The position numbers were made by a program, and so were the translations under genes. Shown one piece after another: positions 21,767 to 22,720 of a DNA stretch of 64,000 nt. The notes beneath the pieces were generated by a model that did not search any database, was not told the origin of the DNA, and was given only the letters and a program-made list of their open reading frames with translations. Within the stretch, counting starts at the first letter, position 1; each line of letters begins with the position of its first letter. The DNA is from Chlamydiae bacterium CG10_big_fil_rev_8_21_14_0_10_35_9. GTDB lineage: Bacteria; Chlamydiota; Chlamydiia; Chlamydiales; SM23-39. The stretch lies in the NCBI GenBank assembly GCA_002773835.1, contig PFAC01000036.1, positions 497 to 64,496 on the forward strand, in the 5' to 3' direction.

Positions 21767-22720
21767 TTAGTTAATTGGCTTTCTAGCTAAGAAAAAATAA
21801 TTGGGTGTAAAAATATCAAGCTTTTCTGCTTCTATAAAAGCTGCAGCTCCCTCCTCAAGATAAGCAGCTACTTGACAGGAACCTTTTGGCGCCAATTTAA
21901 GTTTTTCAGCAATAGCTAAAGTAAAATCAGTTATTTTTCGAATAAGCTTTTTTCGGCGAAGTCTTTTATATAAAGGCCCACACCATGAGTGACCCGGAGT
22001 ACATACATCTCTAGCTTCTAAAAGCTCGAACCCAGCATCTTTTAATGCCTGATTGACTTCTTCAAAGGTAGCTGTTTTTTGGGTTTGCGTTGAATGTTCG
22101 ACCATTTGGATGGTTTTGTAATGTTCGGGATTGTTCTCGTCATAGTTTGGCTTTACACACCACTCATATCCTCCAAAAAAATGACCGGGTTTCAAAACTC
22201 TGAACATTTCTTTAAAACATTCAGTTTTATTAGGTGCGTGACAGGTAGTCTCAAGGGCATAAATGGCATCAAAACTATTATCTTCAAAATCCATTTTCAT
22301 AAAGTCACCGTAAACAAGCCTACATCTGTCTGAAAGCCCAGCTTTTTCTACATTTTTTTTGCCTTTTTTTATCTGATAATCACAAATAGTAATTCCTGTA
22401 ATATTACACCCTGTAGCTTTAGCAATATTGATCATAGGTCCGCCTACGCCACATCCTGCATCCAATACTTTCATTTTAGGTTTTAAATTGATCGCATTAG
22501 CCAAGTTCATTTCATATTTTAAAATAGCCTCTTCATATGTTTCCCCTTTTCCTTGTGGGGCATAATGAAAGCACTTACCCCAGCCTACTTCATAAAAGTC
22601 AGTAACAAGGTCATAATACTTAGCTGCTACACTGACATCTTTAGGATCTGTTTGATTAGGTACATAAGTGGTTACTTCATCACATTTCTGACGATCATAG
22701 ACTTCATCACGATCTGACAT
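21767..22720 (-). CDS. Sterol C-24 methyltransferase-like SAM-dependent methyltransferase (ERG6/SMT family)
   Basis: All three SMT signature regions are present: FYEVGWGKCFHY (cf. YEYGWGxSFHF), LDAGCGVGGP (SAM site) and YALETTCHAP (cf. YAIEATCHAP). Also GDFMKMDFEDNSFD and LKPGHFFGGYEW. Confidence 0.8.
   Translation of the reverse strand: MSDRDEVYDRQKCDEVTTYVPNQTDPKDVSVAAKYYDLVTDFYEVGWGKCFHYAPQGKGETYEEAILKYEMNLANAINLKPKMKVLDAGCGVGGPMINIAKATGCNITGITICDYQIKKGKKNVEKAGLSDRCRLVYGDFMKMDFEDNSFDAIYALETTCHAPNKTECFKEMFRVLKPGHFFGGYEWCVKPNYDENNPEHYKTIQMVEHSTQTQKTATFEEVNQALKDAGFELLEARDVCTPGHSWCGPLYKRLRRKKLIRKITDFTLAIAEKLKLAPKGSCQVAAYLEEGAAAFIEAEKLDIFTPNYFFLARKPIN

What the first reader, a model, noticed from the sequence alone, without database searches (positions are those of the whole stretch)
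21767..22720. Eukaryote-type sterol C-24 methyltransferase (ERG6/SMT)-like gene in a bacterium with no sterol pathway genes in view
Seen: the 317-aa protein carries the three blocks that distinguish SMTs from generic methyltransferases. These are FYEVGWGKCFHY (sterol-binding region I), LDAGCGVGGP (SAM site) and YALETTCHAP (region III), plus GDFMKMDFEDNSFD. Established: these regions are conserved in fungal, plant and protist sterol C-24 methyltransferases, and amoebae make C-24 alkylated sterols. Inference: the gene was probably acquired horizontally from a eukaryote. It might modify host-derived sterols or a related isoprenoid or lipid, or it may be an ancient shared gene relevant to the debated chlamydial-plant gene sharing. 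It is shorter than typical SMTs (about 340-380 aa), so the C-terminal region may be reduced.
Basis: partly seen in the sequence, partly recalled or inferred. Interest (0 to 1): 0.7.

Follow-up and report, generated by a model that had tools for sequence, protein, structure and literature searches.

The report
Chlamydial sterol C-24 methyltransferase, untested subclade
This gene in an uncultured chlamydia encodes a real, selectively maintained sterol side-chain methyltransferase that most likely modifies sterols taken from its eukaryotic host, but close relatives from another chlamydia were already shown to do this in 2023, so it is a new member of a known kind.

Summary
Window 21767-22720 (-) encodes a 317-aa protein with all quoted motifs, a SAM-methyltransferase domain and the SMT-specific Pfam C-terminal domain. 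It is 43% identical to yeast ERG6. The window comes from a Chlamydiae MAG and carries no sterol-pathway gene in 64 kb.

It is not new in kind. Brown et al. 2023 expressed two tandem SMTs from a drinking-water Chlamydiae MAG and showed C-24 methylation in vitro. I identified those genes (L009). The window protein is 48-50% identical to them without gaps, has the same architecture, and groups with them at 80% bootstrap.

It belongs to an untested sister subclade with V83, Y91, T249 and a unique E352 (yeast numbering). It keeps 23 of the 25 residues conserved in functional SMTs. dN/dS is 0.05-0.09 and composition is native. Published mutagenesis predicts 24-methyl, perhaps 24-ethyl, but not 24-isopropyl products.

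The claim of eukaryotic origin is unresolved. 386 bacterial species genomes carry relatives, and deep branching has under 10% support. The shortness is N-terminal plus one loop, not C-terminal.

Interest is modest.

The parts
21767..22720 (-). Sterol C-24 methyltransferase (SMT) gene, 317 aa plus stop codon
   Evidence: ORF. Pfam domains. 43% identity to ERG6. 48% gapless identity to the tested chlamydial SMT type. dN/dS 0.05-0.09.
22562..22597 (-). Region I, the sterol-binding block FYEVGWGKCFHY (residues 42-53). It includes Y43 (= yeast Y81), V45 (= Y83) and Y53 (= F91).
   Evidence: Region I definition from 10.64898/2025.12.19.695621 and PMC6997595.
22184..22465 (-). Class I SAM-methyltransferase domain (residues 86-179). 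It contains Region II D87-x-G-x-G-x-x-G-P95, Region III E157 and Region IV G179.
   Evidence: Pfam Methyltransf_11 at residues 86-179. Residue mapping.
22088..22090 (-). Codon for T211, equivalent to yeast D249 and to G211 of the tested Chl_SMT. This is the product-chain-length determinant.
   Evidence: Mapping. A G249T mutant of Chl_SMT makes C28 and C29 sterols but no C30.
21776..21964 (-). Sterol_MT_C domain (residues 253-315), complete. It contains E299 at nt 21824-21826, where 186 of 200 other SMTs have Gly and none has Glu.
   Evidence: Pfam PF08498 matched at profile positions 3-65 of 66. Column counts.
22730..22734 (-). Shine-Dalgarno-like AAGGA, 10-14 nt upstream of the ATG
   Evidence: Read directly from the upstream sequence printed. 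This is inference only.
21738..21757 (.). Perfect 8-bp palindromic hairpin (AGGCTCTC CTAA GAGAGCCT) 10 nt after the stop codon. It may mark the transcript end. The T-run lies on the + strand side only.
   Evidence: This is a consensus match, not evidence of function.

Best explanation
The gene encodes a functional SAM-dependent sterol C-24 methyltransferase of the short (about 316 aa) chlamydial type.

Mechanism, established for the family: the enzyme transfers the SAM methyl group to C-24 of a delta-24 sterol side chain. The resulting carbocation is stabilised by the aromatic residues of Region I and then loses a proton to give 24-methyl or 24-methylene sterols.

Inferred steps: this obligate intracellular bacterium shows no sterol pathway, so the acceptor is most likely a host-derived sterol such as desmosterol, zymosterol, cycloartenol or lanosterol. 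The residues at the published specificity positions are Y81, an aliphatic V83 and T249, rather than F81/F83 and G249. These predict one methylation, possibly two (C28, perhaps C29 products), and no 24-isopropyl sterols. The gene was inherited vertically within a chlamydial lineage after an old acquisition whose donor cannot be determined.

Shown here: family membership, an intact catalytic motif set, clade membership with tested enzymes, purifying selection, native composition.

Inferred, not shown: activity, substrate source, product range, and where the enzyme acts.
For: Pfam finds a methyltransferase domain plus Sterol_MT_C, both above cut-off. The protein is 43% identical to ERG6 across the whole core. 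It keeps 23 of the 25 residues conserved in all functional SMTs. At 51 family-conserved columns it deviates at 4, fewer than the 7 deviations of the experimentally active subclade C.

L009 9032-9976 matches 15 of 15 published Chl_SMT residues and its 43/45/211 numbering, so it is the tested propylating enzyme. The adjacent gene, P0016, has F81 like the tested methyl-only enzyme. The window protein is 48% and 50% identical to these, with no gaps and identical segment lengths. Subclades A+B+C plus P0057 form a clade at 80% bootstrap.

dN/dS is 0.052 and 0.090 against orthologs. GC is 0.368 and GC3 0.258, against 0.353+-0.022 and 0.272+-0.028 for other window genes. There is macro-synteny with the 79% ortholog's locus. 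The AF2 model is confident (pLDDT 88).

There are no sterol genes in 64 kb. The tested MAG also lacks them, and its authors propose modification of host sterols. A G249T mutant of Chl_SMT makes C28 and C29 but not C30, and F81/F83 raise C30 yield.
Against: No member of subclade A has been assayed. Two of the 25 'functional' residues differ. F91->Y also occurs in 8 of 200 other SMTs. G352->E occurs in none of 200, and Gly was retained in every SMT the authors tested. By the authors' own criteria, deviation at such residues was seen in 7 of 11 inactive proteins. Position 83 is aliphatic, where about 77% of other SMTs have Y, F or W.

Only 64 kb of the genome was examined, so a sterol pathway elsewhere is not excluded here. 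The host is unknown. Amoebal hosts already alkylate their own sterols (abstract of PMC5711494), so the benefit to the bacterium is unclear. No conserved partner genes point to a pathway.
Confidence: 0.72

Rival explanations
1. It is a neofunctionalised SMT homolog that methylates something other than the sterol C-24 position. Candidates are another position on the sterol nucleus, as in the nematode C-4 methyltransferase, or a non-sterol isoprenoid or olefinic lipid made by the bacterium or the host.
For: There is no sterol pathway in view. The unique G352E and the aliphatic residue at 83 are fixed in the subclade. The SMT family is known to include an enzyme with different regiochemistry (PMC6997595).
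Against: The nematode 4-SMT is only 21% identical to Erg6p and lacks the aromatic Region I. The window protein is 43% identical and keeps Y81, W85, F89 and H90. It deviates less from the family consensus than the subclade proven active on sterols, and it shares a clade with those enzymes.
Confidence: 0.1
2. The bacterium makes sterols de novo with genes located elsewhere in its genome, and this SMT is the side-chain step of that pathway, as in the Sandaracinus and sponge-symbiont gene clusters.
For: Many bacterial SMTs do sit in sterol gene clusters or in genomes with a cyclase (PMC10070321). Only 64 kb of this genome was inspected.
Against: The tested chlamydial MAG has no other sterol homologs, and no chlamydia is known to make sterols. 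None of the four chlamydial SMT neighbourhoods examined has a sterol gene. The small, effector-rich genome with a TLC transporter indicates an obligate intracellular lifestyle.
Confidence: 0.05
3. The gene is a eukaryotic contaminant or misassembly, or a decaying relic without function.
For: The protein resembles eukaryotic SMTs, and the deposited record annotates it only as a hypothetical protein.
Against: It lies inside a 238-kb contig between chlamydial genes and was assembled independently on 8 contigs from several samples. Its GC and GC3 are native. Orthologs at 97% and 79% identity sit in related MAGs with shared flanking genes. dN/dS is 0.05-0.09 with the full length intact.
Confidence: 0.02

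Closest known systems
[quoted passage not shown] Brown et al. 2023 (PMC10070321); Brown & Welander 2025 preprint.
   Same: It is from the same phylum and the same short architecture (315 vs 317 aa, with identical landmark spacing 36/51/92/67/34/26). It is 48% identical with no gaps and falls in the same 80%-supported clade. Its genome also lacks other sterol genes. Region II, III and IV residues are the same.
   Different: Chl_SMT has F83, F91, G249 and G352 and makes C28, C29 and C30 (24-isopropyl) sterols. The window protein has V83, Y91, T249 and E352 and is untested. Chl_SMT is one of a tandem pair lying between an RF-1-like gene and Dus in a 47% GC genome. The window gene is single-copy in a different neighbourhood in a 35% GC genome.
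[quoted passage not shown]
   Same: It is 50% identical with the same architecture and clade. It performs a single methylation only, which is the outcome I predict as most likely for the window enzyme.
   Different: It has F81, Y83, G249 and G352. It is the tandem paralog of Chl_SMT.
Saccharomyces cerevisiae ERG6 (zymosterol C-24 methyltransferase, EC 2.1.1.41)
   Same: It is 43% identical over residues 35-317. Region I-IV motifs are shared, with near-identical blocks GDFMKMDFE(D/E)N(S/T)FD and YDENNPEH. Both have the Sterol_MT_C domain.
   Different: ERG6 is 383 aa, with 38 extra N-terminal residues, a loop 13 residues longer and a tail 13 residues longer. It has Y83, F91, D249 and G352. It works within a complete eukaryotic ergosterol pathway.
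Plant and green-algal SMT1 (cycloartenol C-24 methyltransferase) and SMTs of free-living or sponge-symbiotic bacteria (Myxococcota, Nitrospirales, Dehalococcoidia and others)
   Same: They belong to the same family at 39-47% identity and share the same 25-residue core. They are the best non-chlamydial matches.
   Different: They are longer at the N-terminus (49-55 vs 36 residues before Y74). They are part of de novo sterol pathways, and many bacterial ones lie in sterol gene clusters. Neither group is resolved as sister to the chlamydial clade.
Eukaryote-like sterol reductases of intracellular bacteria (Coxiella delta-24 reductase; Legionella drancourtii and Protochlamydia sterol reductase; sponge-associated chlamydiae)
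   Same: The logic is analogous: a lone sterol-modifying enzyme in an obligate intracellular bacterium that cannot make sterols, presumed to act on host sterols (PMC2667531 title and abstract; PMC9666466).
   Different: It is an unrelated enzyme family with different chemistry (reduction rather than C-methylation).

Membership tests
Sterol C-24 methyltransferase (SMT/ERG6 family) | Class I SAM-methyltransferase domain with the Region II motif D-x-G-x-G-x-x-G-P | tested here: met
   Pfam Methyltransf_11, E 1.9e-21. D87, G89, G91, G94 and P95 align to yeast D125, G127, G129, G132 and P133.
Sterol C-24 methyltransferase (SMT/ERG6 family) | Region I sterol-binding signature Y-E-x-G-W-G-x-x-F-H-F with aromatic residues | tested here: met
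   Y43, E44, G46, W47, G48, F51 and H52 are present. There are two substitutions: V45 at yeast position 83, where L or I occurs in 9 of 200 others, and Y53 at position 91, found in 8 of 200 others.
Sterol C-24 methyltransferase (SMT/ERG6 family) | SMT-specific C-terminal domain (Pfam PF08498) above the gathering threshold | tested here: met
   57.8 bits against a cut-off of 21.7, at residues 253-315, profile positions 3-65 of 66.
Sterol C-24 methyltransferase (SMT/ERG6 family) | All 25 residues reported as conserved in every functional SMT (Brown & Welander 2025) | tested here: inconclusive
   23 of 25 are present. F91->Y and G352->E are fixed in the subclade. The set is an empirical correlate, not a definition. 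The tested-active subclade C deviates at more family-conserved columns than this protein does.
Sterol C-24 methyltransferase (SMT/ERG6 family) | Groups phylogenetically with biochemically validated SMTs rather than with other methyltransferases | tested here: met
   It forms an 80% bootstrap clade with the two tested chlamydial SMTs. All 298 representatives at E<=1e-30 are from the SMT-like tier.
Sterol C-24 methyltransferase (SMT/ERG6 family) | Catalyses SAM-dependent methylation of delta-24 sterols | not testable with these tools
   This needs an enzyme assay or erg6 complementation.
Propylating (24-isopropyl-forming) bacterial SMTs | Gly at yeast position 249 (necessary) and Phe at 81 and/or 83 | tested here: not met
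   The window protein has T211 at position 249, Y43 at 81 and V45 at 83. All eleven tested G249 substitutions, including G249T, abolish C30 products. It is therefore not filed as a propylating SMT.
Nematode sterol C-4 methyltransferase (STRM-1 type) | About 21% identity to Erg6p, and Region I lacking the signature aromatic residues | tested here: not met
   The window protein is 43% identical to ERG6 and retains aromatic Region I residues.
   The best NCBIfam hits score 52-55 bits against cut-offs of 155-650. PDB matches to MitM and RebM cover only the SAM-binding core, residues 63-179. Fold matches have 17-24% identity.

The most novel reading that the evidence does not exclude
Subclade A (this protein and about 9 relatives) may be a functionally distinct chlamydial SMT. 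The Glu fixed at yeast position 352 occurs in no other SMT outside the chlamydial clades, and it is combined with an aliphatic residue at 83 and Tyr at 91. Together these could retune the sterol pocket toward a different host acceptor, such as cycloartenol or lanosterol-type intermediates of a protist host, or toward a different deprotonation outcome. The enzyme might then act as a host-directed factor that rewrites host membrane sterols, rather than decorating sterols in the bacterial envelope.
Probability: 0.2. Interest if true: 0.5.

Novelty: new member of a known kind. Interest (0 to 1): 0.3.

Why it matters
Bacterial sterol side-chain methylation complicates the reading of C28-C30 steranes as eukaryote or sponge biomarkers. 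Chlamydial SMTs also pose an open biological question: why would an obligate endosymbiont that makes no sterols alkylate them?

This protein adds a second, well-separated and strongly constrained chlamydial lineage, about 50% identical to the tested enzymes. It carries natural variants at exactly the positions (83, 249) that mutagenesis links to product chain length, plus one substitution unique to it and its sister subclade (G352E). That makes it a useful natural test case for the published sequence-to-product rules. It also adds evidence that the trait is old and maintained in environmental chlamydiae. It does not change the overall picture.

Tried and rejected
1. NCBIfam gave no family at cut-off.
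2. The PDB sequence and fold searches found no true SMT structure. The best hits are generic small-molecule methyltransferases. The one chain named '24-sterol C-methyltransferase' (6f5z_A, 231 aa) matches only residues 130-237 at E 6e-7 and is uninformative.
3. The AlphaFold-DB fold library was unavailable. Model coordinates are not exposed, so I could not measure whether V45, Y53, T211 and E299 line the pocket.
4. I searched the paper supplements for the window's locus tag or MAG name and found nothing. A full-text search for the MAG name returned 0 papers.
5. On operon or pathway context, the upstream NUDIX gene is not conserved next to the 79% ortholog, and no sterol gene occurs in any of four chlamydial neighbourhoods.
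6. A recent-transfer signature was rejected, because GC and GC3 are native. RSCU correlation is 0.68 against a mean of 0.83, within the range of other window genes.
7. Deep phylogeny was only a bootstrapped NJ tree, since no ML program was available. Placement outside the chlamydial clade is unresolved, and the nominal neighbours (Oscarella, Rotaria, one unnamed) have under 10% support.
8. Loss of an N-terminal membrane anchor is not supported. No compared SMT has a TM-grade hydrophobic segment.
9. L010, labelled Verrucomicrobiae, shows no synteny with the chlamydial loci, so its taxonomy could not be verified.

Full report
OBSERVATION. An ATG-started ORF of 317 aa lies at 21767..22720 on the minus strand. 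Pfam finds a class I SAM-methyltransferase domain (Methyltransf_11, residues 86-179, E 1.9e-21). It also finds the SMT-specific C-terminal domain PF08498 at residues 253-315, scoring 57.8 bits against a gathering cut-off of 21.7 and covering profile positions 3-65 of 66. BLASTP against yeast ERG6 gives 43% identity over residues 35-317, E 9e-79. I recalled the ERG6 sequence from memory and validated it: it reproduces all 28 residue/number pairs named in the 2025 preprint. No NCBIfam family reaches its cut-off. The cyclopropane-synthase, UbiE and other methyltransferase models score about 50 bits against cut-offs of 155-650. PDB matches such as MitM and RebM cover only the SAM-binding core.

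ORGANISM AND CONTEXT. The identical protein is deposited as a hypothetical protein of 'Chlamydiae bacterium CG10_big_fil_rev_8_21_14_0_10_35_9'. It occurs on 8 independently assembled contigs, the longest 238 kb. I scanned about 50 of the window's 55 ORFs against Pfam. They show chlamydial hallmarks: a TLC nucleotide transporter, MEP-pathway GcpE and a KDO cytidylyltransferase. They also include many eukaryote-like domains: F-box/LRR, ankyrin repeats, a UCH deubiquitinase, DSPc and a DOT1-like domain. No sterol-pathway gene is present. The gene's GC (0.368) and GC3 (0.258) match the other window genes (0.353+-0.022 and 0.272+-0.028). The 79%-identical ortholog in a Parachlamydiales MAG lies in the same larger neighbourhood (Polysacc_deac, GT2, IMPDH, HD, TLC, AhpC). 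dN/dS is 0.052 against a 97% ortholog and 0.090 against the 79% ortholog. The gene is therefore resident, vertically inherited in this lineage and under strong purifying selection. Contamination, recent transfer and decay are all excluded.

WHAT IS ALREADY KNOWN. Brown et al. 2023 (PMC10070321) expressed two SMTs with adjacent IMG gene IDs from a drinking-water Chlamydiae MAG. One made 24-methyl, 24-ethyl and 24-isopropyl sterols from desmosterol and 24-methylenecholesterol. The other made only 24-methyl sterols. The authors noted that the MAG has no other sterol-biosynthesis homologs and suggested that chlamydiae methylate host-acquired sterols. Brown & Welander 2025 mutagenised the propylating enzyme (Chl_SMT). 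They found that G249 (yeast numbering) is necessary for C30 products, and that a G249T mutant still gives C28 and C29. Phe at 81 or 83 raises C30 yield. They also listed 25 residues conserved in all functional SMTs.

LINKING THE WINDOW PROTEIN TO THOSE EXPERIMENTS. A scan of 185,579 species-representative genomes found 386 bacterial loci encoding relatives. Seven loci form the chlamydial tier. L009 (Chlamydiae bacterium Ga0074140, LNES01000003.1) carries two tandem 315-aa SMTs. The upstream one matches all 15 residues that the preprint gives for Chl_SMT, and it reproduces the paper's own numbering Y43/F45/G211. The downstream one (P0016) has F81, as reported for the methyl-only enzyme. The window protein is 48% and 50% identical to them with no gaps. 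The spacing between conserved landmarks is identical at 36/51/92/67/34/26 residues.

PHYLOGENY. I built a neighbour-joining tree from 238 full-length SMTs: the chlamydial sequences, 78 named bacterial genome loci, family representatives at 50% clustering, named plants and algae, and ERG6. It used 286 columns and 200 bootstraps. Three chlamydial subclades emerge. Subclade A is the window protein with P0002-P0008, L006 and L007 (100%). Subclade B is P0010 and P0019 (100%). Subclade C is P0011-P0030 and includes both tested enzymes (99.5%). A+B has 93% support. A+B+C together with one further 317-aa bacterial protein (P0057, next to a Suf operon) has 80% support. Subclades B and C share a neighbourhood, with the SMT beside a small RF-1-like gene and Dus, which supports common descent. 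At 50% clustering the whole group collapses to one representative at 515 bits, and the next scores 267 bits. Beyond this clade nothing is resolved: support is under 10%, and the nominal neighbours are a sponge, a rotifer and an unnamed protein. Myxobacterial and plant or green-algal SMTs are equally distant. Brown et al. reported the same lack of deep resolution. A eukaryotic donor, a plant connection or a bacterial donor therefore cannot be distinguished.

RESIDUE-LEVEL FUNCTION TEST. The window protein keeps 23 of the 25 'functional SMT' residues. The exceptions are F91->Y53 and G352->E299, both fixed in subclade A. E352 is also fixed in subclade B. Among 200 non-chlamydial SMTs, Tyr at 91 occurs 8 times and Glu at 352 never. 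At 51 columns that are at least 85% conserved in those 200 proteins, subclade A deviates at 4 and the experimentally active subclade C at 7. So there is no general sign of lost function. At the specificity positions the window protein has Y81, V83 and T249. Position 83 is V or I throughout subclade A, while about 77% of other SMTs have Y, F or W there. Applying the published mutagenesis, I predict 24-methyl products, possibly 24-ethyl, and no 24-isopropyl products. The nematode C-4 methyltransferase is an SMT relative with different regiochemistry. It is only 21% identical to Erg6p and lacks the aromatic Region I, so it is not a good model for this protein.

SIZE. Compared with plant SMT1 (340-346 aa), the protein lacks 13-19 N-terminal residues and 5-6 residues in the W286-G333 loop. 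Its C-terminal tail is of normal length (11 residues, against 9-16). Compared with ERG6 it lacks 38, 13 and 13 residues respectively. The active Chl_SMT has the same compact form, so shortness does not argue against activity. The AlphaFold2 model is confident, with mean pLDDT 88.2 and pTM 0.87. No SMT structure exists in the PDB for comparison.

MECHANISM AND RIVALS. The best explanation (confidence about 0.72 for the whole statement, higher for 'functional SMT') is a SAM-dependent C-24 methyltransferase acting on host-derived delta-24 sterols. Where it acts, in the bacterium or in the host after secretion, is unknown. Three rivals remain. The first is a neofunctionalised enzyme with another substrate or position (about 0.10). 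It is kept alive by the unique E352 and aliphatic 83, but weakened by the overall orthodoxy of the sequence. The second is de novo sterol synthesis encoded elsewhere in the genome (about 0.05). The third is contamination or a relic (about 0.02). An analogous precedent exists: lone sterol reductases in Coxiella, Legionella drancourtii, Protochlamydia and sponge-associated chlamydiae.

VERDICT. The finding is real and correctly identified as an SMT, but it is not new in kind. It is an untested member of a sister subclade to chlamydial SMTs that have already been characterised biochemically. Its value is as a natural variant for testing the published product-specificity rules, and as further evidence that sterol methylation is an old, maintained trait in some environmental chlamydiae. 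Interest 0.3. Novelty: new member of a known kind.

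Noticed in passing
window 3227-4528 (+), 4590-6440 (+), 6539-7927 (+), 32776-35727 (+), 35820-37490 (+), 40555-41700 (-), 19481-20353 (-): There is a dense set of eukaryote-like candidate effector genes: an F-box plus LRR protein, two further LRR proteins, two large ankyrin-repeat proteins (983 and 556 aa), a UCH-family ubiquitin hydrolase and a dual-specificity phosphatase (DSPc). 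This is typical of protist-associated environmental chlamydiae.
   Followed up: partly
window 37487-38137 (-): A 216-aa protein matches Pfam DOT1 (histone H3K79 methyltransferase) at 26.8 bits against a cut-off of 23. The match covers only the SAM-binding part, profile positions 21-91 of 205. The SMT itself also gives a sub-threshold DOT1 hit, so this may be generic methyltransferase similarity rather than a true DOT1-like effector.
   Followed up: no
window 23438-24700 (-): An orphan 420-aa ORF two genes upstream of the SMT has no Pfam match. It contains an internal duplication: the N-terminal ~105 residues and the C-terminal ~110 residues are 36% identical, E 2e-17. The two copies are separated by a low-complexity acidic or proline-rich linker.
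   Followed up: partly
window 20493-20861 (+) and 20934-21344 (+): Two adjacent small ORFs (122 and 136 aa) just downstream of the SMT are paralogs, 33% identical at E 2e-14. They share an SY(S/P)FRSYD(N/D)SN(L/F)G motif and have no Pfam family on record. They are possibly membrane or inclusion-type proteins.
   Followed up: partly
window 25838-25911 (-) and 25927-26001 (-): Two tRNA-Met (CAT anticodon) genes lie in tandem, 15 nt apart. I did not determine which is the initiator, the elongator or a tRNA-Ile2 precursor.
   Followed up: no
window 13243-18110 (+): A eukaryote-style P-type cation ATPase (920 aa, with Cation_ATPase_N and Cation_ATPase_C domains) is followed by a ferric-reductase/NOX-like flavoprotein (432 aa) and a DUF4396 protein. 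This block is absent from the syntenic region of the 79% relative's locus.
   Followed up: no
L010 (CAWESW010000053.1), match 10001-10945: A subclade C SMT, 80% identical to the tested methyl-only chlamydial enzyme, sits on a contig of a MAG labelled 'uncultured Verrucomicrobiae bacterium'. Its flanking ORFs show no similarity to the flanks of the chlamydial SMT loci. Either the bin label is wrong or this SMT type extends beyond Chlamydiota within the PVC group.
   Followed up: partly
L086/L009 7496-12356 and L087 8256-10695: In subclades B and C the SMT gene or genes lie beside a small RF-1-domain (ArfB-like) gene and a tRNA-dihydrouridine synthase (Dus) gene. This conserved neighbourhood spans proteins only about 46% identical. 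In L009 a VKOR and an SPW-repeat gene sit immediately upstream of the tandem SMT pair.
   Followed up: partly
loci L030, L054, L056, L064 (non-chlamydial bacterial MAGs): Several non-chlamydial genomes carry a second, more divergent SMT paralog within 10 kb of the first, at 33-39% identity to the query. This is consistent with the SMT1/SMT2-like duplications reported for bacterial sterol clusters.
   Followed up: no
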